From NCBI GenBank assembly GCA_964487475.1, contig CAZAPM010000008.1, positions 1 through 57,086 of the forward strand: a stretch of DNA of 57,086 nucleotides, read 5' to 3'. The stretch is from an uncultured Planctomycetales bacterium (lineage in GTDB: Bacteria; Omnitrophota; Gorgyraeia; Gygaellales; Profunditerraquicolaceae). Positions 2,315-48,220 of the stretch are shown piece by piece (position 1 is the first letter of the stretch; the number at the start of each line of letters is the position of its first letter). A program made the position numbers and the translations under genes. The notes below the pieces were generated by a model, which did no database searches, was not told the DNA's origin, and saw only the letters and a list, made by a program, of their open reading frames with translations.

Positions 2315-3799
2315 ATGAACGCTGCCTTTCTCAAGACCCCGGATTCACTGCTGGTCCACCCCGCGATCGGGTTCACTTCGGTCGCCACCATGGTGGCGGC
2401 TGCCGGTCACCATACCGTATTCGTAGACCTTTCCTTAAGCGGATACCCCTTTGAGCGCCTGCACTATAACCAGGCGTACATGGCGGGGCTTGCCCTCAAC
2501 TGGGAGGCAGTGGAAAAGGATATCGCCGCAACAGACGCGCACGCCTATTTCATCACCGCATCCTTTACCCGCTACCTTCCCGAGACCTTCCGCACGGCGC
2601 GCCTGATCAGGAAACACCACCCCGGCGCCTTGATCGTCGCCGGAGGGGTGCACGCCAGCTACCTGCCGCTGCGCACCCTTGAGGAGTGCGCCGAGATCGA
2701 CGCGGTCGTGATCGGGGAAGGAGAGCATGCGGCAGTGGCGATACTGGAAACCGTGAAGCACAATAAACCTCTGGAAACCGTCCCCGGCCTTGCCTGCAGG
2801 ATCAACGGAAAAGCGACGCTTACCGGCGGGTGCGGATTCGAACCCCTCCTGGACGACCTGCCCTCACCTGATCGCCGGCTCTGGCCGGAAAGAGAGTACC
2901 GGACCGTCTGGAAGCACCTTTTCGAGGGCCGGGACCCGTTGGGACTGATCATGACCTCGCGCGGCTGTGTCGGCCGCTGCCTTTTCTGTGCCAGCGGAAA
3001 GAGACAGATCACCTTCAACAAACTTCGTTTCCGCAGCCCCGGATCGGTCCTGGAAGAGCTGCAGATGCTGATCACGGATTTCCATATCACCAGTGTTGAC
3101 GTGCTTGACGACTGCCTGACCCTCAATAAACCGCTGCTTCCGGAGTTATGCGAGTTCATCTCCCGACATCATCTGCCCTGGGTGTGCAAATCCCGCATAG
3201 ACAAACTGGACCTAGAGACCATCCGCCTGCTCAAAAAACACGGGTGCGAAAGGGTGTTCGTGGGAATGGAATCCGGTGACGATAACATCCTGCAGCAGAT
3301 GGGCAAGCATGTGGACATGGCCCTGATCAGGCGCGTCAGCAGAGACCTGATGCGGGAGGGCCTCGATTTCAGCGCCAGTTTCACGGTCGGCCATCCCGGG
3401 GAGACCGAAGCATCGATCCGTAAGACGACCGACTTTGCCTCATCGCTGGCGCGCAGGGGTAAACGGGTGGGGATATACCTCATCACCCCGTACCCCGGAA
3501 GCGCGCTTTACGATTCGGCGACGGAACACGGCTGGCTTCTGCCGTGCGAGTGGCATGAGTTCGACCAAAGTGCGAGCGGTAAACCCATCTATGCGCCGGA
3601 TGGCTGGACCCCGGAGCAACTGCAGGCCAGCTACCGCCGGGCCTGGAAAAAGGTATATCAGGCGCATGTGCAGAGTTTCCTGCTGCATCCGGGAACACTG
3701 CTCCTTAAGCTCAAGGGCAAGGGGGCGAAAGCCTTGATTAAGGTTTTTACCTGTGGTATTGTAAATGCAGCCCGACGGCTATGGAAAAGGAAAAAATGA
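2315..3799 (+). CDS. Cobalamin-binding radical SAM enzyme (class B type)
   Basis: N-terminal B12-binding-like domain (GGVHAS, GEGE), CxxxCxxC motif (SRGCVGRCLFC), GMESG, PYPGS. Confidence 0.9.
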   Translation: MNAAFLKTPDSLLVHPAIGFTSVATMVAAAGHHTVFVDLSLSGYPFERLHYNQAYMAGLALNWEAVEKDIAATDAHAYFITASFTRYLPETFRTARLIRKHHPGALIVAGGVHASYLPLRTLEECAEIDAVVIGEGEHAAVAILETVKHNKPLETVPGLACRINGKATLTGGCGFEPLLDDLPSPDRRLWPEREYRTVWKHLFEGRDPLGLIMTSRGCVGRCLFCASGKRQITFNKLRFRSPGSVLEELQMLITDFHITSVDVLDDCLTLNKPLLPELCEFISRHHLPWVCKSRIDKLDLETIRLLKKHGCERVFVGMESGDDNILQQMGKHVDMALIRRVSRDLMREGLDFSASFTVGHPGETEASIRKTTDFASSLARRGKRVGIYLITPYPGSALYDSATEHGWLLPCEWHEFDQSASGKPIYAPDGWTPEQLQASYRRAWKKVYQAHVQSFLLHPGTLLLKLKGKGAKALIKVFTCGIVNAARRLWKRKK

Positions 3800-7935: not shown

Positions 7936-8678
7936 AAGAACGTTCCCTTCCCGAACATTACCGCAAAGATGCACACGCCCAAGGGTATATCCGGCGCAGG
8001 TTCTCCTCTGCGGGAGGATTGGCGCTGCAGGAGATCGAGCTAAAGGCCTTTTCCGAGTTACTGGGAAAAGGCCCCTATTCCAGGATACTGGAACTGGCCT
8101 GCGGCACGGGAAGACTTACCCGCCTGCTCAACGAACGGTTCCCGCACTCCCTTATCGGCGTTGACGCTTCCCTCGCCATGATCAGGGAGATCGGCAGTGG
8201 GGTGCGCGTGCCCATCGCCTGCGCAGATATCTTTGACCTGCCCTTCAAACCCGGATCGTTCGATGCCTGCATCAGCCTGCGCCTCTTCCATCATTTCACC
8301 CCGGCTAAAATAGCATTAGCCCTGGCCGCAGTGCGCCGGGTATTATCCCCCGGAGGAGTGCTCATTTTCAACACCACAAAAGCCTGCAGCCTGGCGGCTG
8401 CCGGGGCGTGGACCAATATGCTGCGGGATAAATTCGCCTACCAGCATTTCATCTCCGACAAAGCGGTGCGCCGCATACTGCTCGGGGAAGGATTCTCCGT
8501 TGCGGAGAAAAAGGATGTGCTCTTCATGCCCTCCTTTGCCTTCCGTTTGGCTAAAACCCCGCCTCTGGCTTCCGCCGTTCGCGCGCTGGATCGCGCCGGA
8601 CAGGCCTTCGCACCCGGCGCCTGCAGCATGACGGTGTGGAAAGCAGTCTGTACCCCGCAGCAGGGAAGCGCACGATGA
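7932..8678 (+). CDS. Class I SAM-dependent methyltransferase
   Basis: ILELACGTGR, GVDAS, LPFKPGSFD, LFHHF, RVLSPGG. ATGA overlap. Confidence 0.88.
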   Translation: MKERSLPEHYRKDAHAQGYIRRRFSSAGGLALQEIELKAFSELLGKGPYSRILELACGTGRLTRLLNERFPHSLIGVDASLAMIREIGSGVRVPIACADIFDLPFKPGSFDACISLRLFHHFTPAKIALALAAVRRVLSPGGVLIFNTTKACSLAAAGAWTNMLRDKFAYQHFISDKAVRRILLGEGFSVAEKKDVLFMPSFAFRLAKTPPLASAVRALDRAGQAFAPGACSMTVWKAVCTPQQGSAR

Positions 8679-10117
8679 AGATACTCTTTGTCACCAACGT
8701 CATGAGCCAGTTCATGGATTTCGCCCCCCTGGGGATCATGTACCTTTCGGCGGTGGCGAAAAAAGCCGGCCACGAGACACTGGTCACGGACGCGGAGTAC
8801 TCAAAGATACTGCGGGCCTGCCGGGAGGAAAAGCCGGAGGTGGTGGCGTACTCCGTCACCACCGGCTACCACGGGTATTTTTTAGCCCTCAACCAAAAAC
8901 TGAAAAAAGCCCTGCCCGGAGGTTTTTTTGCCGTCTTCGGCGGCCCGCATGCCACCTACTTCCCCGAGATGGTGAAGGAGGAAGGAGTGGATGCCGTTTT
9001 CCGCGGAGAGGGAGAAGAGGCTTTTGCGGAGTTCCTGCAGGCGTTCCCGCACCGGGAAAAACTCTATCGACTGCGCAACTGCTGGGTCAAAGATATGGCG
9101 GATCCTGCGCGCATCCATGAGAACCCCCTGCGCCCGCTGATCGACGACCTGGACCTCATACCTTTCCCCGACCGCGCCCTGATCAGCCGCTACCTGCGCA
9201 AACCCCTGGGTTTCCACACCTTCATGTCAAGCCGGGGATGCCCTTACCAGTGCACCTACTGTTTTAACGCCGCTTACCGCGCCCTTTATCAGGGACTGGG
9301 AAAAACCCTGCGCAAAAGATCGGTCGGCAACCTGATCGAAGAGATATCCCGGGTCAAATCGGAATTCCCCCTGCAACACGTTTCCTTCCAGGATGACGAG
9401 TTTTGCGGATCGCTGGAGTGGCTTAAGGAATTCAGCGCGGAGTACCGCCGGGTTATCGGGGTGCCGTTCTCCTGTAATTTCCGGCCCAACCTGGTCACCG
9501 GAGAAAAGGTCGCCCTGCTTAAGGAAGCCGGGTTGTCCTCCGCCAGTATGGCCTTCGAAGCCGGAGATCCCCGGGTCAGGAACGAGATCCTCAAAAGGAA
9601 CCTTTCTCAGGAAACCATGCTCCACGCGGCGCACACCATCACCTCCGCAGGCGTATTCCTGACCATCCAGAATATCCTGGGAATCCCCGGAGGAAGCCTG
9701 GAGGCGGACTTGAAGACCCTGGACCTCAACATCGCCGCCAGGCCGGGGTATGCCTGGGTATCCATATGCGCGCCTTATCCCGGGACCGAACTGGGCACCT
9801 ACGCCCGGGACCGGGGATATTTTGACGGTACGCTCGATTCCCTGACCCCCACCTACCATTTCCGTTCCTCCCTTACTATCAAGCACAAAAGGGAGGTGGA
9901 GAACCTGCATAAACTATTCGCCATTGTCGTAGAATACCCCTGGCTTAAGCCGCTGGCGCGGCAACTGATCAGGCTTCCCCTTACGGGAGTGTATAATTTA
10001 GCCCGAAAATTCTTCAAAGGCTGGATCTATTACCGCAAGAACAGGTTTAAAATGCGCTTCAGTCTCGCGGAAAAGCTGAAATACGGCCTTAAGTTCCTTA
10101 CAGAGACCGGCGGATAA
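8675..10117 (+). CDS. Cobalamin-binding radical SAM enzyme (class B type)
   Basis: PLGIMYLSA, GGPHATYFPE, GEGE, SRGCPYQCTYCFN, PYPGT. ATGA overlap. Confidence 0.92.
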   Translation: MKILFVTNVMSQFMDFAPLGIMYLSAVAKKAGHETLVTDAEYSKILRACREEKPEVVAYSVTTGYHGYFLALNQKLKKALPGGFFAVFGGPHATYFPEMVKEEGVDAVFRGEGEEAFAEFLQAFPHREKLYRLRNCWVKDMADPARIHENPLRPLIDDLDLIPFPDRALISRYLRKPLGFHTFMSSRGCPYQCTYCFNAAYRALYQGLGKTLRKRSVGNLIEEISRVKSEFPLQHVSFQDDEFCGSLEWLKEFSAEYRRVIGVPFSCNFRPNLVTGEKVALLKEAGLSSASMAFEAGDPRVRNEILKRNLSQETMLHAAHTITSAGVFLTIQNILGIPGGSLEADLKTLDLNIAARPGYAWVSICAPYPGTELGTYARDRGYFDGTLDSLTPTYHFRSSLTIKHKREVENLHKLFAIVVEYPWLKPLARQLIRLPLTGVYNLARKFFKGWIYYRKNRFKMRFSLAEKLKYGLKFLTETGG

Positions 10118-31972: not shown

Positions 31973-32425
31973 GTGAATAAACCGGGACGGTATCAAGTAT
32001 TACGTATGCGCATGCGAAAACGCAATAATAAAGGTATGAGCCTGGTGGAAGTACTGATCGCCATCGCGGTGTTCTCGATAGGGGTGGTCGCGCTTTTAAG
32101 CAGTATCGTCTCCGTATTCTTCCTTTTGGAATCCTCAAAGAACCAGGCCCTGGCGCTTTCAGACGTGCGCAGCATCATGGAGCGCATCCGCGCCACTCCT
32201 TACTCCAATATGCTGACTGATTTTCCCGATGCTACGGTGAACGGCCCTTCAGGATCCAAACGTTATTCGACGGTCCTGGGAGGGTACGGGCTGGGCACGG
32301 AGAACATGACCGTGACCTACACCAACAGCGCGACGGACCCCCTGGAAGTGAAGGTCACCGCCCGCTGGAGGGACAGGTTCGGCCGAAGCGAGACGTTAGC
32401 CCTGTCCACGTATAAGACGAGGTAG
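31973..32425 (+). CDS. Type IV pilin-like protein (PilV/pseudopilin-like)
   Basis: Class III signal: basic leader ...RKRNNKG|MSLVEVLIAIAVFSIG with Glu at +5. Start is GTG 31973 or ATG 32006/32012. Confidence 0.85.
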   Translation: MNKPGRYQVLRMRMRKRNNKGMSLVEVLIAIAVFSIGVVALLSSIVSVFFLLESSKNQALALSDVRSIMERIRATPYSNMLTDFPDATVNGPSGSKRYSTVLGGYGLGTENMTVTYTNSATDPLEVKVTARWRDRFGRSETLALSTYKTR

Positions 32426-32427
32426 CG

Positions 32428-33000
32428 ATGAAAAAACTGGGACGAAGAGGCCTTTCCCTGGTCGAGACGGTCATCACGGTGGGGATCATGCTGCTGACGG
32501 TGGATATCGCCTACAACGTCTACGTGACCAACTTCGACATGTGGGATGTGGGAAACGAGCAGGCGGAGCTGCAGTACCAGGCGCGAAGCGCCTTGAACCG
32601 CATGACCGCGGAGCTTCGCAACACCACGCGCACCTCGACCCAGACCCCGTCCCCCAACATCTCCATTCCCTCGACCCCGAACAACAAATCCATCCAGTTC
32701 ACGCTTCCCGAAGAGGATATGGGCGGGGGAGTGAGCGTGGTCAACGACGAAATAGACTGGGATACTAATACCAATATCCAATACCAGTATGTGCCCGGCC
32801 AGAAAGAGTTGCGCCGATCGGTGGGAGGCACGCACCTGGTGCTGGCTTCGAACGTATCGGACGTGCAGTTCATCGACACGGGAATCGACGGCTCGCTGCT
32901 GCGCGACGAGCTCAAAATCGTCCTGACACTGCAAAAGACCATCCGGGGAGGGAAAGTGATCACGGCCACCGCCCAGGGGATCGTCAAACTGAGGAACTAA
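32428..33000 (+). CDS. Type IV pilin-like protein (PilW-like)
   Basis: MKKLGRRG|LSLVETVITVGIMLL with Glu at +5, and ALNRMTAELR helix. Confidence 0.85.
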   Translation: MKKLGRRGLSLVETVITVGIMLLTVDIAYNVYVTNFDMWDVGNEQAELQYQARSALNRMTAELRNTTRTSTQTPSPNISIPSTPNNKSIQFTLPEEDMGGGVSVVNDEIDWDTNTNIQYQYVPGQKELRRSVGGTHLVLASNVSDVQFIDTGIDGSLLRDELKIVLTLQKTIRGGKVITATAQGIVKLRN

Positions 33001-33002
33001 AG

Positions 33003-34628
33003 ATGCGATTACGCACGAATAAAGCGCAAGCACTGATCCTGGCGTACATGGTGATCGCGGTATTCCTGCTGATGTCATCGGCGCTTTCCACCCGGGCGAT
33101 CGTGGAAGGGCGCGCATCCTTAGTCAACAACCGGCAGGCCGAGGTGTTCTACCTGGCGGAAGGGGGCACCGAGAGGGCCATCGCGGTCTTTTCCGCGGCC
33201 ATCGCTAATTACCAGACCATCCCGGGAACGGTCACCACCACGTTCCCCTCGTTTCATAACGTCACCGTCAACTCGACCATCACCGACTTGGAGAGCGGCA
33301 ACTCCACCGACCGGACCACAAGCGCGGGGGGCAGTTTCGTGAAGATCCGGCAGTACGAGATCACCACCACCGCCGTGCACCCGTCGGATGCCAACATCAC
33401 CGCGACCGTGCACCAGATCATCGAACGCCGCCTGATACCTACCTTCCAGCACGCGGTCTTCTACAACGACGACCTGGAGATCATCCCCGGGGCGAACATG
33501 AACCTCTCCGGCCGCATCCACTGCAACGAGGATATGTACCTGGACGCCTATGCCGGAAGCACCCTGACCATCAACTCCACGTACATACATTCCGCCGGGA
33601 ACATCTACAACCAGCGCAAGGATGACGGAAGCGAACAGGGAGGGGAGGTAAGCATCCGGGAGAACAAGACCGGCTCCCCCAGTTATGAGGACATGGATAA
33701 CCTCGACTGCGACAATGCCTCCTGGCTTTCCGCAGCCGATGCCCGATGGAACGGATCGGTCATGAGCTCGGTGCACGGCATTACCAAGCTGACCGCGCCT
33801 GCGGTAGGCAGCATCGCACCGGGAGGGTATTACGCCTCCAACGCCAATCTTGTCATCACCGCCAACGGCTCTGCCGTCACCGTGACCAAGGGCGGAGTGC
33901 CGCTGACCCAGGGGGTGGATTACCCCAACGGCACGTTCCAGGTCAAGACCACCTTCTACGATAACCGCGAGTCCCAGACCGTGCAGATGCTCGAGATCGA
34001 TATGCGAAAGCTCGCCGGATACAACACCACCAATGCCACCAACGCGACGTTCTCCAACAATCTGCCCTCCAACGGCCTGCTCTATGCCAGCATCGGCGGC
34101 ACCGGATCGAACCTGCCGGGGGTAGCGCTCACCAACGCCACCGAGATCAGGAGAAGCGGCGGATTGACGGTGGTATCCCAGAATCCGGTGTACCTGAAAG
34201 GCAACTATAACACCGTCAACGAAACCTCTGCCGCCATCATCTGCGACTCGCTGAACTTAGTCTCAAACGCCTGGAAGGATTCCAACAGCACTGGAAACAT
34301 CAACGGCAGGGTGGCTAACGCCACCGTATATAACAGCGCCTTTATCGCGGGGGTCGACGAAACGGTAGCCGGCAGTTACAACGGCGGCCTCGAGAACTAT
34401 CCCCGGTTGCACGAAAAATGGGGCAGCGTCAACCTGACCATCAAGGGCTCCTTTGTCGAGCTCTGGCAGACGCAGGTAGCAGACGGCAACTGGCCGGGTA
34501 CGGGTTCCGTGTACACCCCACCGGTGCGCAAATGGAGCTATAACGAGAACTTCAACAACGTCTCGAACCTTCCGCCCTTCACCCCCTACGCAGTCGAAGC
34601 CGAAAGAATAGCGTGGTGGATAGATTGA
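33003..34628 (+). CDS. PilX-like minor pilin with a large Asn/Thr/Ser/Gly-rich extracellular domain
   Basis: N-terminal KAQALILAYMVIAV (pilin helix lacking Glu5), QAEVFYLAEGG (PilX-type), C-terminal GSFVELW and YTPPVRKWSY. Third gene in the pilV-pilW-pilX order. Confidence 0.75.
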   Translation: MRLRTNKAQALILAYMVIAVFLLMSSALSTRAIVEGRASLVNNRQAEVFYLAEGGTERAIAVFSAAIANYQTIPGTVTTTFPSFHNVTVNSTITDLESGNSTDRTTSAGGSFVKIRQYEITTTAVHPSDANITATVHQIIERRLIPTFQHAVFYNDDLEIIPGANMNLSGRIHCNEDMYLDAYAGSTLTINSTYIHSAGNIYNQRKDDGSEQGGEVSIRENKTGSPSYEDMDNLDCDNASWLSAADARWNGSVMSSVHGITKLTAPAVGSIAPGGYYASNANLVITANGSAVTVTKGGVPLTQGVDYPNGTFQVKTTFYDNRESQTVQMLEIDMRKLAGYNTTNATNATFSNNLPSNGLLYASIGGTGSNLPGVALTNATEIRRSGGLTVVSQNPVYLKGNYNTVNETSAAIICDSLNLVSNAWKDSNSTGNINGRVANATVYNSAFIAGVDETVAGSYNGGLENYPRLHEKWGSVNLTIKGSFVELWQTQVADGNWPGTGSVYTPPVRKWSYNENFNNVSNLPPFTPYAVEAERIAWWID

Positions 34629-40310: not shown

Positions 40311-40670
40311 GTGATGGCGTTCGAGGAAAAGAGAAGGTATCCGCGCATCTGCTGCAATTTCGAGGTCGAGTATTCCCGTTCCGATGACGATTCGTGCCAG
40401 ATCTACACCACCAGCAGCCGCGATATCAGCCGGGGCGGCATCCGCTTCATCTCCCTCGAAGAACTGCCCATGGGCCAGTGCCTCAAAATGCGCTTCACCT
40501 CCCTTGACGACGAACAGATCATCTTTGCCACCGGAAGGGTCGTCTGGATCGATAAATTCGTGGTAGGGGACATCAATTCCAGCACGGCGTACGAGACCGG
40601 GGTGGAATTTTTCGACCTGGACGAAACGGCAGCAGAGCAGCTCGCCCGCTTAACCCACAAACCTGTGTAA
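40311..40670 (+). CDS. Stand-alone PilZ domain protein
   Basis: EKRRYPR (RxxxR), DISRGG (DxSxxG), GRVVW, TGVEF. Confidence 0.9.
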   Translation: MMAFEEKRRYPRICCNFEVEYSRSDDDSCQIYTTSSRDISRGGIRFISLEELPMGQCLKMRFTSLDDEQIIFATGRVVWIDKFVVGDINSSTAYETGVEFFDLDETAAEQLARLTHKPV

Positions 40671-40691: not shown

Positions 40692-43600
40692 ATGTATTTT
40701 AAACGTCTAGAGATCGTCGGCTTCAAATCCTTCTACCACAAGACCAACCTCGATTTTGAACCCGGCATCACCGCGATCGTCGGGCCCAACGGCTGCGGCA
40801 AATCCAACATCTTCGATTCCATCCGCTGGGTCCTGGGCGAACAGTCGGTCAAGGCCCTGCGCGGCACCGACATGCAGGACGTCATCTTCAACGGCACGGA
40901 ATCAAAAGAGCCCCTGGGGATGGCGGAAGTCACCCTGGTCTTCGATAACAGCAACAAGCATTTTTCCGTCGACCATACGGAGGTTGCGGTCACCCGCCGC
41001 CTCTACCGCTCGGGGGAAAGCGAATACCTGCTCAACAAGAACATCGTGCGGCTGAAGGATATCCTGGACCTGCTCATGGGAACCGGGATCGGCGCGGAGA
41101 GCTACTCCCTGATCCAGCAGGGGAAGATCGACCTGGTCTTAAGCGCCAAACCCGAGGACAGACGGCTGGTCTTCGACGAGGCATCCGGGATCAGCAAGTA
41201 CAAGGCCCAGAAGCGGGAGACCCTGCGCAAACTCGAGGACACGGAACAGAACCTGCTGCGGGTCAACGATATCGTCACGGAAGTGAAGCGGCAGATCGGT
41301 TCCCTGGAGCGCCAGGCGAACAAGGCCCGCCGCTACAAGGAGGCTTTCGAAGAGCTCAAAGCCAGGGAGATCCAGCTGGCATCCTTAGAAAAGCAGGCGC
41401 TGCTGGCACAGCAGGAGGAACTCTCCCAGACGCTCTCCCGGCTGCACGCAGACCAGGAGAGCCTGCAGCAGGGGATACTCTCGCAGGAATCCAGCATCAG
41501 CAACCGCCAGCAGGAACTCAAGGACCTGGAGATCCTGATGCAGCGCACCAAGGAAGAGATCCTGCAGCTGCACGGCACGGAATCCCGCAACCAGGAGCAT
41601 ATCCGCTTCAACGAAGAGCGGATCAGGGAGCTGGACGCCTCGAACGTACAGCTGGCGTTACAGATCGAACAGATGCGCGTGCGCATCGCCGCGGATGAGG
41701 AAAAGCTCAACGCCACCCGGCAGGAATATGACGGGATCGCCCAGGCGGTGCAGGAGAAGACCGCGCTGCTGGCCCAGAGGGAACAGACCCTCGCCGAGGT
41801 CAACGCCTCGATCAAGAACTCGCTGCACGCCATCTCCCAGACCAAACAGGACATCCTTGACGCCGCCAGCCGCCTTTCCGCGGTCAACAACTCCATCGCG
41901 GACACCTCCTCGAAAAAACAGGTGTATGCGGCGCGGCAGAACCGCCTGACCCTGGAAAAAGCCAAGATCGGCCAGGAATACGCGGACATGGAGCAGAGCC
42001 TCGCGCAGGTATCCCAGGAACTCTCCGCCTGCGAAGCGCAGTTCGCATCCACGCAGGCGCGCATCGCGCAGACGAAAGAGGCGGAAGCGCAGGAAAAGCT
42101 CTCGTTGAACCAGCTCATCTCCCGTATCGAAGAGCTGGTGATGCAAAAACTCACCCTGGAATCCCACCGGGAGTTCCTCTCGCAGCTGAAATCGAAATAC
42201 GAGGACCTGGGAGAATCCCTCAACGCCACCATCTACCTCGACAAACTGCCCTCCGAGAAACTGGGAGGCATGGTGGTGAAGATCCGGGAATATCAGGACC
42301 TGCAGGCCCAGGAAGGCACGCCGGGAGTGCTCAAGATACTCGGCGAAGCCAAGCCGGTGGACTTGGACACCCAGCGCATCAGCGAACGCATCGCGGAAAC
42401 GGAGCAGGAGATCGTGGCCTTGAACGGCCAGAAAGCGCAGAAGGAAGCGGCGACGGACGAGATCATGCGCTCCATCGCCCAGCTCCAGGAAGAGCTTCGC
42501 TCCCAGGAGATCACCCTCGCCAACAAGCGCACCAACCGGCAGAACCTCACCGACCAGTGCGGCAAGATACGGGAGGAAGAGGAGCTGATCCTGGCGGAGA
42601 TCTCGGACGTGATCCGCGACATGACGCAGTTCGACGCCGCCTTGCAGCAGTTCCAGGCGCAGCAGGCAGAGCTGACCGCCCGGCAGAAGGAACTGGAAGA
42701 TTCCATCCTGCACGAGCAAAACGCCATCACCGCGCACAACCAGACCAAGGAAGAAGCGCTGATGTACATCACCCAGGTCAAGACGGAACTGGAGGCGCTG
42801 CAGAAGAAGAAATCGTCGGACGAAGCGACCATCCGTATCCTGGAGGAGACCTGGCGCCAGGACACCCAGAATTCGGAGGCGCTCACCCGGCAGCAGCAGG
42901 AGCAGACCCTGCGGCAGGAGGCCCTGCGCAAGGAGATGGCGGATCTGGAACGCGCCATCCAGGAAGCCCGCGCCGCGGTCGAAAGCCACACCCAGTTCCT
43001 TTCCCAGTCCCGCGCCTCGTACGAGACGATCTCCAACGCCATCAGCGACGTGGTCGCCAAGATCTCCCTGGACCGCACCGCGCTGGAGGAATGCCGCCAG
43101 CGGATGCATGACACCCAGATGAAAGCCAAAGACTACGAATTCAAATACGAAGGGCTCAAGGAGCGCATCCTGCAGGGGTACAAGATCGACCTGGACACCC
43201 TGGCCGCGCAGGATCCCGAAAGCGGCGCGCCCCCGGAAGAAGGGGCCCTGCGGGAGGAAGTGCGCCAGCTTAAAGCCCGCATCGACTCCTACGGAGCGGT
43301 CAACCTGGTCGCTATCGAAGAGTACGACGAGCTCAAGCAGCGGTATGATTTCCTCACCCAGCAGCAGGCGGACCTCTTCACCGCCAAGGACTCCCTGCAC
43401 GAGGCCATCCTCAAGATCAACCGCACCACCAGGAAGATGTTCATGGAGACCTTCGAAAAGGTGCAGGTGGAGTTCCGCAACTATTTCAAGCTGCTCTTCA
43501 ACGGCGGGGAGGCCCAGGTGTACCTGCTCGACGAATCCGACCCCCTGGAATCGGGGATCGAGATCATCTGCCGTCCCCCGGGCAAAAAGCTGCAGAACAT

Positions 43601-43940
43601 CCTGCTGCTTTCCGGCGGCGAGAAATCCATGGCCGCCATCGCCCTGATCTTCGCCATCTTCAAGGTCAAACCGGCGCCGTTCTGCGTCCTGGACGAGATC
43701 GATGCCGCCCTGGACGAAGCCAACGTCGACCGCTTCGGCAGGATCCTCTCGGAGTTCACCAACACCTCGCAGTTCATCGTGATCACCCACAATAAAAAAA
43801 CCATCGCCAACGCCGACGTCATGTACGGCATCACGATGGAGGAATCGGGGGTCTCGAAGATCGTGTCGGTGAAGCTTTCCCAGTCGAAAGAGAAGAAAGA
43901 GGATACCGCCGCGTCCCTGCCTCAGCCCACTCCGGCCTAA
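40692..43940 (+). CDS. smc: Chromosome segregation protein SMC (hinge region atypically short)
   Basis: MYFKRLEIVGFKSF, GPNGCGKSN, IQQGKI, long coiled coils, GAVNLVAIEEY, LLSGGEKS, VLDEIDAALD, VITHN. Confidence 0.93.
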   Translation: MYFKRLEIVGFKSFYHKTNLDFEPGITAIVGPNGCGKSNIFDSIRWVLGEQSVKALRGTDMQDVIFNGTESKEPLGMAEVTLVFDNSNKHFSVDHTEVAVTRRLYRSGESEYLLNKNIVRLKDILDLLMGTGIGAESYSLIQQGKIDLVLSAKPEDRRLVFDEASGISKYKAQKRETLRKLEDTEQNLLRVNDIVTEVKRQIGSLERQANKARRYKEAFEELKAREIQLASLEKQALLAQQEELSQTLSRLHADQESLQQGILSQESSISNRQQELKDLEILMQRTKEEILQLHGTESRNQEHIRFNEERIRELDASNVQLALQIEQMRVRIAADEEKLNATRQEYDGIAQAVQEKTALLAQREQTLAEVNASIKNSLHAISQTKQDILDAASRLSAVNNSIADTSSKKQVYAARQNRLTLEKAKIGQEYADMEQSLAQVSQELSACEAQFASTQARIAQTKEAEAQEKLSLNQLISRIEELVMQKLTLESHREFLSQLKSKYEDLGESLNATIYLDKLPSEKLGGMVVKIREYQDLQAQEGTPGVLKILGEAKPVDLDTQRISERIAETEQEIVALNGQKAQKEAATDEIMRSIAQLQEELRSQEITLANKRTNRQNLTDQCGKIREEEELILAEISDVIRDMTQFDAALQQFQAQQAELTARQKELEDSILHEQNAITAHNQTKEEALMYITQVKTELEALQKKKSSDEATIRILEETWRQDTQNSEALTRQQQEQTLRQEALRKEMADLERAIQEARAAVESHTQFLSQSRASYETISNAISDVVAKISLDRTALEECRQRMHDTQMKAKDYEFKYEGLKERILQGYKIDLDTLAAQDPESGAPPEEGALREEVRQLKARIDSYGAVNLVAIEEYDELKQRYDFLTQQQADLFTAKDSLHEAILKINRTTRKMFMETFEKVQVEFRNYFKLLFNGGEAQVYLLDESDPLESGIEIICRPPGKKLQNILLLSGGEKSMAAIALIFAIFKVKPAPFCVLDEIDAALDEANVDRFGRILSEFTNTSQFIVITHNKKTIANADVMYGITMEESGVSKIVSVKLSQSKEKKEDTAASLPQPTPA

Positions 43941-43960
43941 CCGGCGCTTTTACGCGCCGG
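43941..43960. terminator. GC hairpin at the convergent smc / diguanylate cyclase junction
   Basis: CCGGCGC-TTTTAC-GCGCCGG, a perfect 7-bp stem whose loop holds the cyclase stop codon. No clear U-tract. Confidence 0.35.
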
Positions 43961-45179
43961 CGTTGCCGTTTCCGCCGTTCTCCCCGAACGGGGTACGGCA
44001 GCAGGTGTTGTTCTTGCCGCTGCGCTTCGCCTGGTATAACGCCTTATCTGCGGATGCGATCAATTCGGAAGGGGTGGAACCGTCCTCGGGGAACGTGCTT
44101 AACCCGATGCTCATGGTGAGCTTCTTCTGGGGCATGACCTCTTCGTGGACGAACTTGCTGCGCTCGATGTCGTGGCGCAGCCTCTCCGCGATGAAAAAAG
44201 CCTCGCGTTTATCGGTCTGCGGCAGGATCACCATGAACTCCTCGCCCCCGTAACGGCAGACGAAATCCATCTTGCGCGACTGGTTCTTGAGCAGCTGCGC
44301 GAGCTGCTTCAATATCTGGTCCCCGGCCTGGTGGCCCAGGGTATCGTTGTAGATCTTGAAGTCGTCGATATCCAGGGCGATGAGGGAGAGGGGCATCTGC
44401 GCCGCTTTGCACCGCTCCATATGGTCCTGCAAAAGGTACTGGAAGCGGCCGTGGTTCCAAAGCTGGGTCAGAGAATCCAGGTGCACCTGAATGACGGTCT
44501 TCTCGTAAAGCTGGGAGTTCTCGATCGCCAGGCCCGCCTGGTTGGCCAGCATGATGAGCATGTGCAGGTCGTCCTTGGAGATGGGCTTCTTGGTGATGAA
44601 GTTATCCGCGAGGATGATCCCGTTGACCTTATCCTTGGCTTTCAGAGGGACTATGGCGACTTCCTCGCTCTTCATGAACCCCAAGACCGGGTCATGGGCG
44701 TATTTGGCGAAGGTCTCCTTGGTCAGATGTATGGGCATACCCTCCAGGACGCATAACGCCAGCACGCCGCCGCCCGCTTCTTTCAAGGGGAGCTTGACGT
44801 GTTTCAGATGGCGGGTCAGGCCGGAATCCTTGGCATCCTTGAGGAAGGTATAGGCGTTGATCAGGTCTTCCAGGGTCTTATGCTCGGTCTCGATCTGGTG
44901 CCAGATGCGGTTGGCTTCCTCACCGGTCTCCGGGCCGATGCTGAGCTTCGCTTCCAGGAGATTATCCGCCTCGTTGACCAGGAAAAGCACCGCACGGTTG
45001 AACCCCAGCCCCATGTGCGCGGTCACCCCGGTCAGGATGATATAGAGGATCTCATCGAGCTTGAGGGTGGTGCGCATGGCGTTGGAGATCTCGTAGAGGA
45101 TGGTAAGCTCGGTCTTGGCGCGTTCCAGTTCCTGCGAGATCCGGCCGTGCTCTTCTGGAGTAGTGCGGGTGTCGTCCAT
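43950..45179 (-). CDS. GAF-GGDEF diguanylate cyclase
   Basis: GAF-like (LYEISNAM...GFNRAVLFLV...QAGLAIEN), DSLTQLWN, LDIDDFKIYNDTLGHQAGD, RKMD I-site, RYGGEEF. Start revised to ATG 45179 because a promoter lies directly upstream. Confidence 0.93.
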   Translation of the reverse strand: MDDTRTTPEEHGRISQELERAKTELTILYEISNAMRTTLKLDEILYIILTGVTAHMGLGFNRAVLFLVNEADNLLEAKLSIGPETGEEANRIWHQIETEHKTLEDLINAYTFLKDAKDSGLTRHLKHVKLPLKEAGGGVLALCVLEGMPIHLTKETFAKYAHDPVLGFMKSEEVAIVPLKAKDKVNGIILADNFITKKPISKDDLHMLIMLANQAGLAIENSQLYEKTVIQVHLDSLTQLWNHGRFQYLLQDHMERCKAAQMPLSLIALDIDDFKIYNDTLGHQAGDQILKQLAQLLKNQSRKMDFVCRYGGEEFMVILPQTDKREAFFIAERLRHDIERSKFVHEEVMPQKKLTMSIGLSTFPEDGSTPSELIASADKALYQAKRSGKNNTCCRTPFGENGGNGNAGA

Positions 45180-45188
45180 ATTGATGTA

Positions 45189-45217
45189 AATGTACCATAA
45201 CCTGGCGGACGTGTCAA
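45189..45217 (-). promoter_or_regulatory. sigma70 promoter of the cyclase gene
   Basis: Minus strand TTGACA-17 nt-TACATT with a TG extension, 9 nt before the ATG. Confidence 0.65.
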
Positions 45218-45236
45218 CTGCTACCGGCCAAAATGG

Positions 45237-45265
45237 TTGACACCCCGCCCCTTCAGTGGTATAGT
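45237..45265 (+). promoter_or_regulatory. Strong sigma70 promoter of the rpsU operon
   Basis: TTGACA-17 nt-TATAGT with a TG extension, divergent from the cyclase promoter. Confidence 0.75.
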
Positions 45266-45321
45266 TATTTCCCTGTCCAATCATACAAACCGTAGTACAT
45301 TCCAGAAAGGGGATGGTCACC

Positions 45322-45483
45322 TTGTCACAGGTTGAAGTCAAGAAAGACGAGCCGTTCGAAGCGGCATTGCGCCGTTTCAAGAAGAAGATCGAGCAGGAAG
45401 GGATCCTGAAAGAGGTCCGGGACCGCAAGCACTACGAAAAACCGAGCGAGCGCAAGAGAAAAAAGATGCGCAGAATGAAATAA
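45322..45483 (+). CDS. rpsU: 30S ribosomal protein S21 (absent from the ORF track, <60 aa)
   Basis: (M)[55 protein letters not shown] start after AAAGGGGA; alternative ATG at 45313. Confidence 0.95.
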
Positions 45484-47220: not shown

Positions 47221-47242
47221 ACACCTACAACCGGAGCGGAAA

Positions 47243-47590
47243 ATGGAAGAGAAGCATATAGACGAAAGCTGGAAAGACGCCGCAGCGAAGGAAAAAGACA
47301 CCCTCAAACAACAGCCGCAGGAAGAAATGGTAGCTCCGGAAGCGACTTTCAGCTTCTTTATCACTACCCTGGCACTGCAGGCCTCCATCGCCCTGGGAGT
47401 GATCCCCGATCCGGCGGATAACAAGAAGGTGCAGAATTTCCCGCAGGCAAAATTCCTGATCGATACCCTGGAGATGGTCCAGCAGAAGACCAAGAACAAC
47501 CTGACCGAAGAGGAAGCCGGACTCCTGGAAAACATCCTTTATGAACTGCGCATGCAGTTCGTCGCCGTACAAAAAAACCACCCGGCATAA
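47243..47590 (+). CDS. DUF1844-like protein
   Basis: FSFFITTLALQASIALG...AKFLIDTLEMVQQKTKNNLTEEE...LYELRMQFV. Confidence 0.8.
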   Translation: MEEKHIDESWKDAAAKEKDTLKQQPQEEMVAPEATFSFFITTLALQASIALGVIPDPADNKKVQNFPQAKFLIDTLEMVQQKTKNNLTEEEAGLLENILYELRMQFVAVQKNHPA

Positions 47591-47603
47591 CAGGAGGTTC
47601 ATA

Positions 47604-47774
47604 ATGATCGACAAAGAGCTACTCGCCATCCTGGCCTGCCCCGCGTGCAAAGGGGACGTCAAAATGGAAGGGGAACGGATCGCCTGCACCAAATGCGGCA
47701 ACCGGTATCCGGTAAAGGACGGGATCCCGGTCATGCTGATCGAAGAAGCGGAAAAGGGCGCTCCGGCTAAATGA
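47604..47774 (+). CDS. Trm112/YcaR-like zinc-ribbon protein
   Basis: [12 protein letters not shown]...[26 protein letters not shown]. Confidence 0.88.
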
Positions 47775-48220
47775 GCACTCCCAGGCTGCGCATCCTGGTC
47801 CTGCACGGCCCGAACCTGCAGCTGCTGGGCACGAGGGAGCCCCAGGTGTACGGGACCACCACCCTGGCCCAGATCAACCGCATGCTGCGGGCAGAGGCGG
47901 CACGCCGCCGCGTCACCTTGAAGATCCTCCAGTCCAACGTGGAAGGGGAGCTGGTGGACGCCGTAGGCAACGCCAATAAGCAGAAGTATCAGGGCATATT
48001 GATCAACCCGGCCGCCTATACCCACACCAGCGTGGCGCTGCGGGATGCCATCTCCGCCTGCGGGATACCCGCGGTCGAAGTGCACCTTTCCAACATCCAC
48101 ACCCGCGAAGAATTCCGGCACCGCTCCCTGATCAGCCCCGTAGCCAAAGGCACGATCATGGGATTCGGGCCAAAAAGTTACTCCCTGGGACTGGCTGCGC
48201 TATGCGATCTGCTCACGTGA
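47771..48220 (+). CDS. aroQ: Type II 3-dehydroquinate dehydratase
   Basis: [53 protein letters not shown]. Confidence 0.96.

What the first reader, a model, noticed from the sequence alone, without database searches (positions are those of the whole stretch)
42195..42369. SMC appears to lack the canonical hinge domain
Seen: the head motifs (Walker A, signature, Walker B) and both coiled-coil arms are intact, but the protein is 1082 aa. Between the arms there are only about 55-60 non-coiled residues (YEDLGESLNATIYLDKLPSEKLGGMVVKIREYQDLQAQEGTPGVLKILGEAKPVDLD). I cannot find the usual hinge features (GVxGxVxxL..., ALGxxLQxIVV, GRATFLPL, GX6GX3GG). Established: Bacillus SMC is 1186 aa and dimerises through a hinge of about 150 aa. 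The roughly 100-aa deficit matches the missing hinge. Inference: a minimal or alternative dimerisation module in an otherwise canonical condensin SMC. There is no frameshift, so it does not look like an assembly break. scpA/scpB are not in the window.
Basis: partly seen in the sequence, partly recalled or inferred. Interest (0 to 1): 0.72.

Follow-up and report, generated by a model that had tools for sequence, protein, structure and literature searches.

The report
Omnitrophota SMC with a mini-hinge
In this bacterium, and in a whole branch of the phylum Omnitrophota, the chromosome-folding motor SMC has a conserved stub of about 57 residues in place of its usual ring-shaped hinge of about 170 residues, with heads and arms unchanged, which gives a natural test of what the hinge is for.

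Summary
ORF 40692-43940 (+) encodes a 1082-aa SMC with all head motifs. Pfam finds no SMC_hinge even at E<=10, while eight sister proteins used as controls behave as expected: six long forms hit it and two divergent short forms do not. About 56 non-helical residues (505-560) link two coiled-coil arms.

The short form is lineage-wide. All 120 best database hits and about 40 species-representative Omnitrophota MAGs share it. It is monophyletic (200/200 bootstraps) and sister to hinge-bearing Omnitrophota SMCs (195/200). It sits at the same locus as those (ACAD-EtfB-EtfA-smc-GGDEF). Arm lengths are unchanged (N-arm 332 aa in both forms); only the middle differs (49-60 vs 165-176 aa).

The module is strongly conserved, has no Cys/His, is predicted as a beta-hairpin after an extended hydrophobic segment, resembles no solved hinge, and occurs in no other protein among 1.84 billion representatives. 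Its N-terminal edge is colinear with the canonical hinge entry, which suggests reduction in place.

My best reading is a channel-less minimal dimerisation tip. Dimerisation, ScpAB and the absence of a second SMC could not be tested. I found no published report. It contrasts with known channel-less hinges, which have much longer arms.

The parts
40692..43940 (+). smc gene, 1082 aa, short form without a hinge
   Evidence: SMC_N E=1.2e-72; TIGR02168 887 bits (cut-off 567); B. subtilis Smc head structures E=1e-139.
40782..40805 (+). Walker A P-loop (residues 31-38, GPNGCGKS). In six relatives this is the insertion site of a ~551-aa intein
41202..42197 (+). N-terminal coiled-coil arm (residues 171-502, 332 aa), the same length as in hinge-bearing relatives
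   Evidence: 332 aa in all 25 short and long forms; helix, pLDDT above 90.
42198..42266 (+). Module part 1 (residues 503-525): YEDLGESLNATIYLDKLPSEKLG. Junction and extended segment with the near-invariant residues N511, A512, D517 and P520 and the hydrophobic run 512-516. It is colinear with the canonical hinge entry (EGxxESVKxI...G)
   Evidence: conservation; alignment; hhalign probability 90%, E=1.6e-6 with the flank; no regular secondary structure in the monomer model.
42267..42302 (+). Module beta-strand 1 (residues 526-537, GMVVKIREYQDL). G526, L527, V528 and K530 are 97-100% conserved. It aligns with the first canonical hinge motif GVxGxV
   Evidence: strand in both models.
42303..42326 (+). 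Hairpin loop of variable length (residues 538-545 here; about 0-30 aa in relatives)
42327..42371 (+). Module beta-strand 2 and exit (residues 546-560, VLKILGEAKPVDLDT). G551, E552, A553, K554 and L558 are 100% invariant in 120 relatives
   Evidence: weak alignment of GEAKPI-LD to the canonical exit linker KEAIP-LFGR (probability 21%).
42372..43286 (+). C-terminal coiled-coil arm (residues 561-865, about 305 aa; 310-313 aa in long forms)
43287..43937 (+). C-terminal head half, with signature LSGGE (43608-43622) and Walker B/D-loop (43680-43715)
40311..40670 (+). PilZ-domain gene directly upstream of smc. It is part of the conserved neighbourhood in some relatives and is not shown to be functionally linked
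   Evidence: PilZ E=3e-16; homologue in 11 loci.
43950..45428 (-). GAF-GGDEF diguanylate cyclase gene, convergent with smc. It is a syntenic marker shared with the loci of hinge-bearing orthologues
   Evidence: (next to smc in at least 32 short-form loci and in long-form loci L044, L045, L046, L048).

Best explanation
This is the orthologous chromosomal Smc (condensin) of a large clade within Omnitrophota. In that clade the ancestral hinge toroid of about 170 aa was reduced in place to a tip of about 57 aa. The tip keeps the hinge entry (junction and first strand), lacks the entire hinge core including the glycine-rich dimer interface, and ends in a new invariant element, fKlSGEAKPIeLD. I infer the rest. 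Two such tips pair through their beta-hairpins and the exposed hydrophobic run A512-L516 into a small intermolecular sheet. That would make a constitutive but channel-less dimerisation point, which closes the Smc ring so that ATP-driven loop extrusion by the unchanged heads and 332-aa arms can proceed. The function recently assigned to the hinge channel, as a gate for single strands that lets obstacles be bypassed, would then be missing. Shown here: absence of the hinge, conservation of the module, monophyly, orthology by synteny, unchanged arms, and the uniqueness of the module. Inferred: homodimerisation, absence of a channel, loop extrusion with ScpAB, and being the only SMC in the cell.
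For: No PF06470 at E<=10, while the positive controls hit it. No hinge-coding DNA in any frame. All 120 best hits are 1065-1101 aa without PF06470. About 40 species-representative MAGs carry the short form. Short forms are monophyletic in 200/200 bootstraps and sister to hinge-bearing Omnitrophota Smc in 195/200. The gene order ACAD-EtfB-EtfA-smc-GGDEF flanks both forms. The N-arm is 332 aa in both forms, and only the middle differs, 49-60 vs 165-176 aa. Module residues G551, E552, A553, K554 and L558 are 100% invariant, and N511, A512, D517, P520, G526, L527, V528 and K530 are 97-99% conserved. That matches the conservation of the head motifs and far exceeds that of the arms. The beta-hairpin at 526-537 and 546-556 is reproduced in two models, while the hydrophobic run 512-516 is left unstructured in the monomer, as expected for an interface. 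The N-edge is colinear with the canonical hinge entry (probability 90%, E=1.6e-6, 35 bits against 21 bits for the coiled-coil flank alone). The module is found in only 20 of 1.84 billion representatives, always at about position 495-577 of an SMC, so there is no donor family. [quoted passage not shown]
Against: The tip has only moderate confidence in the monomer models (pLDDT 52-67 and 61-81). The canonical dimer-interface motifs are absent. Compared without their flanks, module and hinge show no significant profile similarity (E=0.09, 0.013 and 0.25), so the claim that the module is a remnant rests on colinearity at one edge. ScpA and ScpB were not found in the window or in about 0.9 Mb of relatives' flanks, which is uninformative because they are usually encoded elsewhere. 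A second SMC elsewhere in these genomes is not excluded. The module carries a net charge of about -4, so there is no obvious DNA-binding patch.
Confidence: 0.55

Rival explanations
1. The tip is not a homodimerisation element. It caps a coiled-coil hairpin and either binds another protein or nucleic acid, or the ring is closed only at the heads and kleisin or along the arms.
For: The canonical dimer interface is gone. Invariant charged and polar residues (N511, D517, E552, K554) could equally serve a heterotypic interface. A PilZ gene and a GGDEF gene flank smc. The monomer models fold without needing a partner.
Against: Ring closure at the distal end was required for loop extrusion in the engineered hinge-less Wadjet (PMC12647877). 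PilZ is found in only 11 loci and not always adjacent to smc, and the GGDEF gene also flanks hinge-bearing orthologues, so neither is specific to the short form. An exposed run of five conserved hydrophobic residues and an edge-exposed hairpin are typical of self-association.
Confidence: 0.17
2. The short form is a specialised paralogue that coexists with a canonical hinge-bearing Smc, so the hinge function is not lost from these cells.
For: Whole genomes could not be inspected here. NCBI does not name these proteins SMC.
Against: The short form occupies the same syntenic locus as the hinge-bearing Smc of sister lineages. It is their sister clade in the tree and scores as a TIGR02168 equivalog. 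No isolate in the genome scan yielded both forms. The L044 hinge finds no match within +/-10 kb of any short-form gene.
Confidence: 0.1
3. The hinge was replaced by a foreign or newly arisen domain (a domain swap) and was not reduced in place.
For: The hairpin and the GEAKP element have no significant similarity to any part of the canonical hinge or to any solved structure.
Against: No other protein family among 1.84 billion representatives carries the module, so no donor is visible. The N-terminal third continues colinearly from the coiled coil into the canonical hinge entry. There is no compositional break in the DNA.
Confidence: 0.15
4. It is an assembly artefact, an in-frame deletion in one assembly, or a decaying pseudogene.
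For: None beyond the short length.
Against: Independent assemblies from many studies share the architecture. The module has invariant residues and the reading frame is intact.
Confidence: 0.01

Closest known systems
Canonical bacterial Smc of Smc-ScpAB (B. subtilis Smc; TIGR02168)
   Same: Head sequence (E=1e-139 to 5xg3/3zgx), all ATPase motifs, arm length (N-arm 332 aa vs about 330 aa quoted for B. subtilis Smc in PMC12647877), equivalog-level HMM score, and a syntenic position shared with hinge-bearing orthologues.
   Different: It lacks the hinge domain PF06470: no GVxGxV...ALG..LQ.IVV, no GRATFLPL and no glycine-rich interface. Instead of about 170 aa it has 57 aa.
Natural channel-less hinges: MukB, Wadjet-II/III JetC, Acetobacter/Gluconacetobacter Smc (Liu et al. 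2025, PMC12647877)
   Same: SMC proteins whose distal dimerisation element has no central channel, which is inferred here from size.
   Different: Those still have a folded hinge-derived domain and, as a rule, much longer arms (N-helix about 511 aa in Acetobacter). Here the arms are unchanged at 332 aa and the element is far smaller.
Engineered Smc(Zh) with a Rad50 zinc hook (Buermann et al. 2017, PMC5344682) and ecJET(core) with a 9-residue linker and a disulfide (PMC12647877)
   Same: SMC motors that work with a minimal, unrelated distal dimeriser. They show that such an architecture can be functional.
   Different: Those are artificial. This one is natural, conserved across a clade, and has no metal-binding Cys/His or disulfide.
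Rad50/SbcC and archaeal ASRP/ClsN zinc hooks
   Same: A very short apex between two long antiparallel helices.
   Different: There is no CxxC motif (105 of 120 module sequences have no Cys at all). HMM scores to Rad50 models are at most 70 bits, against 887 for Smc.
Prefoldin-type tips (coiled-coil hairpin capped by beta-hairpins that oligomerise); a structural analogy only
   Same: The predicted topology of helix, beta-hairpin, helix. Prefoldin appears among the weak fold matches (2zdi_C, E=0.21).
   Different: No sequence or significant structural relationship, and a different function.

Membership tests
Bacterial Smc (TIGR02168 / Smc-ScpAB condensin) | ABC-type head with Walker A, Q-loop, signature, Walker B/D-loop and H-loop, split between the N and C termini | tested here: met
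Bacterial Smc (TIGR02168 / Smc-ScpAB condensin) | Whole-protein HMM score above the curated equivalog cut-off | tested here: met
   887 bits against a cut-off of 567.35; the match is split at the hinge.
Bacterial Smc (TIGR02168 / Smc-ScpAB condensin) | Two antiparallel coiled-coil arms of about 330 aa | tested here: met
   332 and about 305 aa, against 332 and about 310 aa in hinge-bearing relatives; pLDDT above 90.
Bacterial Smc (TIGR02168 / Smc-ScpAB condensin) | SMC hinge domain (PF06470), a toroidal dimerisation domain with a glycine-rich interface | tested here: not met
   no hit at E<=10; controls hit; hhalign not significant; no solved hinge matched; no hinge-coding DNA.
Bacterial Smc (TIGR02168 / Smc-ScpAB condensin) | Orthology with hinge-bearing Smc (phylogeny and synteny) | tested here: met
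Bacterial Smc (TIGR02168 / Smc-ScpAB condensin) | Kleisin ScpA and kite ScpB partners encoded in the genome | not testable with these tools
   Not in the window or in relatives' flanks. Whole genomes could not be read.
Bacterial Smc (TIGR02168 / Smc-ScpAB condensin) | Homodimerisation at the distal end of the arms | not testable with these tools
Rad50/SbcC and ASRP (zinc-hook SMC-like proteins) | CxxC zinc hook at the apex | tested here: not met
   no conserved Cys or His. Rad50 models score at most 70 bits against cut-offs of 700-1087.
RecN | Short (about 550 aa) SMC-like protein matching the recN model | tested here: not met
   TIGR00634 scores 42.8 bits against a cut-off of 408; the protein is 1082 aa.
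MukB/MksB/JetC | MukB-type head and a small hinge-derived dimerisation domain | tested here: not met
   No MukB or JetC family or structure appears among the matches.

The most novel reading that the evidence does not exclude
A whole bacterial clade runs its only chromosomal Smc without a hinge toroid and without the compensating longer arms seen in every other known channel-less SMC. If so, hinge-gated obstacle bypass is dispensable in nature. A tip of about 57 residues based on a beta-hairpin would then be a previously undescribed, minimal, metal-free way of closing an SMC ring.
Probability: 0.45. Interest if true: 0.8.

Novelty: new variant of a known kind. Interest (0 to 1): 0.62.

Why it matters
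What the SMC hinge does has long been debated. Recent work proposes two things: the toroid's channel is a gate that lets loop-extruding SMCs pass RNA- or ssDNA-tethered obstacles, and lineages that lost the channel compensate with much longer arms (PMC12647877). This clade is a natural counter-example. The hinge core is gone, the arms are unchanged, and the heads are highly conserved. That makes several questions directly testable.

- Can a 57-residue tip close the ring?
- Can it replace the B. subtilis hinge?
- Do such complexes fail at obstacle bypass?
- What lets these cells live without it? Omnitrophota cells are ultra-small with genomes of 0.86-3.2 Mb (PMC10066038), and the genes in this window are almost all co-oriented.

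There is also a practical point. Public annotation calls these proteins 'AAA family ATPase' or 'hypothetical protein', so Smc is under-called in this phylum.

Tried and rejected
2. phmmer of the central 130 aa against PDB gave only a chance V-ATPase match (E=0.07).
3. Foldseek of the 231-aa model returned only generic coiled-coil hairpins (V-ATPase D/G, prefoldin; best E=7e-3). Foldseek of the 91-aa tip model returned nothing meaningful (best E=1.5, TM<=0.28).
4. hhalign of the module alone against the hinge alone was not significant. The halves without flanks were not significant either.
5. Regex probes for ScpA (F.GP[LFIM][DE][LVIM]L[LVIM]) and ScpB ([ILV]EA[LIVM][LIVM]F[VASLI]) in the window and 58 loci gave one spurious antisense hit.
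6. An exact look-up of the window's SMC in the contig index found no record.
8. Literature searches for hingeless, mini-hinge or channel-less Smc, and for Omnitrophota or Omnitrophica with SMC or hinge, found no description of this variant.
9. A zinc hook was considered and rejected, because there is no conserved Cys or His.
10. A link to c-di-GMP signalling through the PilZ and GGDEF neighbours was considered and set aside, because the GGDEF gene also flanks hinge-bearing orthologues.
Full report
THE OBSERVATION. The window carries one uninterrupted 1082-aa reading frame at 40692-43940 on the + strand. Pfam assigns SMC_N across residues 3-1055 (E=1.2e-72) and reports no SMC_hinge (PF06470) even with the threshold relaxed to E<=10. 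The NCBIfam bacterial Smc model TIGR02168 scores 887 bits, above its curated cut-off of 567. The match is split, however: the first stretch ends at residue 513, which is profile position 513 of 1181. The related model TIGR02169 resumes at residue 582, which corresponds to profile position 678. The two head halves match B. subtilis Smc head structures at E=1e-139 (5xg3, 3zgx), and no hinge structure is matched. Walker A (residue 31), Q-loop (140), signature LSGGE (973), Walker B/D-loop (997) and H-loop (1031) are all present. Two AlphaFold2 models with different construct boundaries both end the N-terminal helix at residue 504 and restart the C-terminal helix at 560-561.

CONTROLS AGAINST ARTEFACT. 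Canonical-length SMCs fetched from sister lineages serve as a positive control for the Pfam test. All six scanned hit PF06470 at E=1e-11 to 1e-19, while the two most divergent short forms (46% identical to the window protein) do not. tblastn with 13 canonical hinge segments finds nothing in any frame of the 57-kb window (best E=0.056 over 24 aa at an unrelated position). The same query recovers every long-form locus at E=1e-45 to 1e-119 and none of the short-form loci. Base composition across the site (GC 0.54-0.63) matches the flanks, and only short repeats expected by chance are present.

THE TRAIT IS LINEAGE-WIDE. All 120 best hits among 5.8 billion proteins are 1065-1101 aa and 55-62% identical, and none carries PF06470. 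Those with names are from Candidatus Omnitrophota/Omnitrophica. A scan of one genome per GTDB species returned about 40 loci with the short form and about 15 with an SMC of about 1200 aa. The latter include Omnitrophota members (Ca. Tantalella remota, Ca. Makaraimicrobium thalassicum and others). A neighbour-joining tree was built on 1001 aligned columns with the central region removed. It recovers the short forms as monophyletic in 200/200 bootstrap replicates and as sister to the hinge-bearing Omnitrophota-type SMCs in 195/200. This is a simple distance tree on 25 sequences, so it is adequate for this question but is not a full phylogeny. The gene order MarC, GlgC-like, GNAT, acyl-CoA dehydrogenase, EtfB, EtfA, (PilZ), smc, convergent GAF-GGDEF is conserved in short-form loci. 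The core order ACAD-EtfB-EtfA-smc-GGDEF also flanks the hinge-bearing gene in L044, L046, L047 and L048. The short form is therefore the positional orthologue of a canonical smc, and the hinge was lost once, within Omnitrophota.

WHAT CHANGED AND WHAT DID NOT. Using shared landmarks in one alignment, the N-terminal arm is 332 residues in every short and every long form. The C-terminal arm is 301-306 residues in short forms and 310-313 in long forms. One short-form locus, L036, has a C-arm of 351 aa. The middle is 49-60 residues in short forms and 165-176 in long forms, apart from a Zixibacteria outlier at 151. The change is thus confined to the hinge.

ANATOMY OF THE MODULE. Across 120 relatives the consensus is KYEDIGESMNAVIYLDKLP.E..sGLVvKI, then a loop of about 0-30 aa, then fKlSGEAKPIeLDTq. 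G551, E552, A553, K554 and L558 are invariant. N511, A512, D517, P520, G526, L527, V528 and K530 are 97-99% conserved. This matches the conservation of the catalytic head and is well above that of the arms. There is no conserved Cys or His, so it is not a zinc hook. Both structure models give a beta-hairpin (strands 526-537 and 546-556; pLDDT 52-67 in the long construct and 74-81 in the short one). It is preceded by an extended segment (505-525) that contains a run of five conserved hydrophobic residues and has no regular structure in the monomer. No solved structure resembles it. The long model matches only generic coiled-coil hairpins, and the tip-only model matches nothing. An exhaustive HMMER scan of 1.84 billion representatives with the 81-aa module finds 20 proteins. 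The module is always at about residues 495-577 of an SMC of about 1070-1090 aa, of fragments of one, or of a 1630-aa intein-bearing copy. The named clusters among these are all Omnitrophota. The module exists in no other protein context.

ORIGIN. In the alignment of short and long forms, the short form stays colinear through the coiled coil and into the canonical hinge entry. FLEKLKTKYEDIGESMNAVI corresponds to FLEKLIEEREGVNESVKEII, and sGLVVKI lies over the GVxGxV motif. After that, about 110-115 residues of hinge core are missing. Profile-profile comparison supports the N-terminal edge (probability 90%, E=1.6e-6, 35.1 bits, against 20.8 bits for the coiled-coil flank alone). It supports the C-terminal edge only weakly (GEAKPI-LD against KEAIP-LFGR, probability 21%, 21.1 against 17.5 bits). 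Without flanks nothing is significant. Together with the absence of any donor family, I favour reduction of the ancestral hinge in place. The second strand and the GEAKP element would then be new or diverged beyond recognition.

HOW IT MOST LIKELY WORKS. Established knowledge sets the frame. In B. subtilis the hinge can be replaced by the unrelated Rad50 zinc hook with near-normal growth, and arm length must fall in discrete windows (PMC5344682). In Wadjet the hinge and distal arms are dispensable for loop extrusion, but the ring must stay closed. The hinge channel is proposed to be a gate for ssDNA- or RNA-tethered obstacles. Known channel-less hinges (MukBEF, Wadjet-II/III, Acetobacter Smc) go with much longer arms, for example an N-helix of about 511 aa against 330 aa (PMC12647877). 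Against this background, the most economical reading is that the Omnitrophota tip is a minimal constitutive dimeriser. Hairpin-to-hairpin pairing, with the conserved hydrophobic run as the interface, would close the ring for an otherwise standard Smc motor. At about 57 residues per chain the tip cannot plausibly form the basic toroidal channel. This part is inference, because no dimer prediction could be run and the canonical interface motifs are absent. I put about 0.55 on this reading. The rivals are a non-dimerising or partner-binding tip (0.17), replacement by a foreign or novel domain instead of reduction in place (0.15), a paralogue coexisting with a canonical Smc (0.10), and an artefact (0.01).

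WHAT COULD NOT BE SETTLED. ScpA and ScpB are not among the roughly 50 ORFs of the window, and signature probes did not find them in about 0.9 Mb of relatives' flanks. These genes are normally unlinked to smc, so this says little. Whole genomes could not be read, so a second SMC elsewhere is not excluded, although synteny and phylogeny argue that the short form is the orthologue.

NOVELTY. Searches of the held literature found no description of this variant. The terms covered Omnitrophota or Omnitrophica with SMC or hinge, and hingeless, mini-hinge and channel-less. Two Omnitrophota genomics papers never mention Smc, Scp or hinge. The paper that lists natural channel-less hinges does not mention this phylum. 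NCBI names these proteins 'AAA family ATPase' or 'hypothetical protein'. I rate it a new variant of a known kind. It is a true Smc orthologue that fails one defining feature of the family, and unlike other channel-less SMCs it keeps arms of canonical length.

Noticed in passing
L039:5397-7049 (also L015, L025, L023; by length L014, L020); the equivalent site in the window is 40782-40805: In six relatives the short-form smc carries a ~551-aa intein inside the Walker A P-loop (GPNGCGK|C...VHN|SNIFD). Pfam gives Intein_splicing at E=5.5e-28 plus a LAGLIDADG homing endonuclease. The window's own gene has no intein.
   Followed up: yes
window 40311-40670 (+) and 43950-45428 (-): smc is flanked by c-di-GMP genes: a PilZ-domain gene 21 bp upstream and a convergent GAF-GGDEF cyclase 9 bp downstream. 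The GGDEF neighbour is conserved in at least 32 short-form loci and in several loci with a hinge-bearing smc. PilZ is present in 11 loci and is not always adjacent. No functional link is shown.
   Followed up: partly
window 1-57086: Gene orientation is extremely biased. About 48 of the 50 ORFs with assignments lie on the + strand; only the GGDEF gene and a 298-aa ORF without any Pfam hit (47225-48121) are on the - strand. Strong co-orientation would reduce head-on encounters for a translocating Smc, which is relevant if hinge-gated bypass is missing. I did not test this genome-wide.
   Followed up: no
proteins P0003, P0006, P0125, P0135, P0139-P0146; loci L002, L005, L007, L013: Public annotation calls these Smc orthologues 'AAA family ATPase' or 'hypothetical protein'. 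Several MAGs that carry them are labelled Planctomycetales, Margulisiibacteriota or Patescibacteria, although their smc and its synteny group with Omnitrophota.
   Followed up: partly
window 24-24499: A large cluster for surface polysaccharide or LPS-type biosynthesis. It includes several class I methyltransferases, two B12-binding radical SAM enzymes (2315-3799, 8636-10117), GT1, GT4 and GT9 glycosyltransferases, two Wzy-type ligases or polymerases, Wzz, asparagine synthase and a Wza-like exporter.
   Followed up: no
window 31973-34628: A type IV pilin-like gene (N_methyl motif, 31973-32425) is followed by two ORFs of 190 and 541 aa that have no Pfam match.
   Followed up: no
L010 (9992-12064 and 12068-13240), L032 (8216-11527 and 11478-13100), L050 (8750-13300): In two MAGs the smc frame is split into two pieces, by a stop or a frameshift. 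In L050 the etfA and smc genes lie in one stop-free frame of 1517 aa. These are probably assembly or sequencing errors, and I did not examine them.
   Followed up: no
protein P0012, module region: One relative has a partial duplication inside the hairpin loop (…LKLSGEPRINPADFLRGEAKPIDLD…). This shows that the loop tolerates insertions while the GEAKP element is kept.
   Followed up: no
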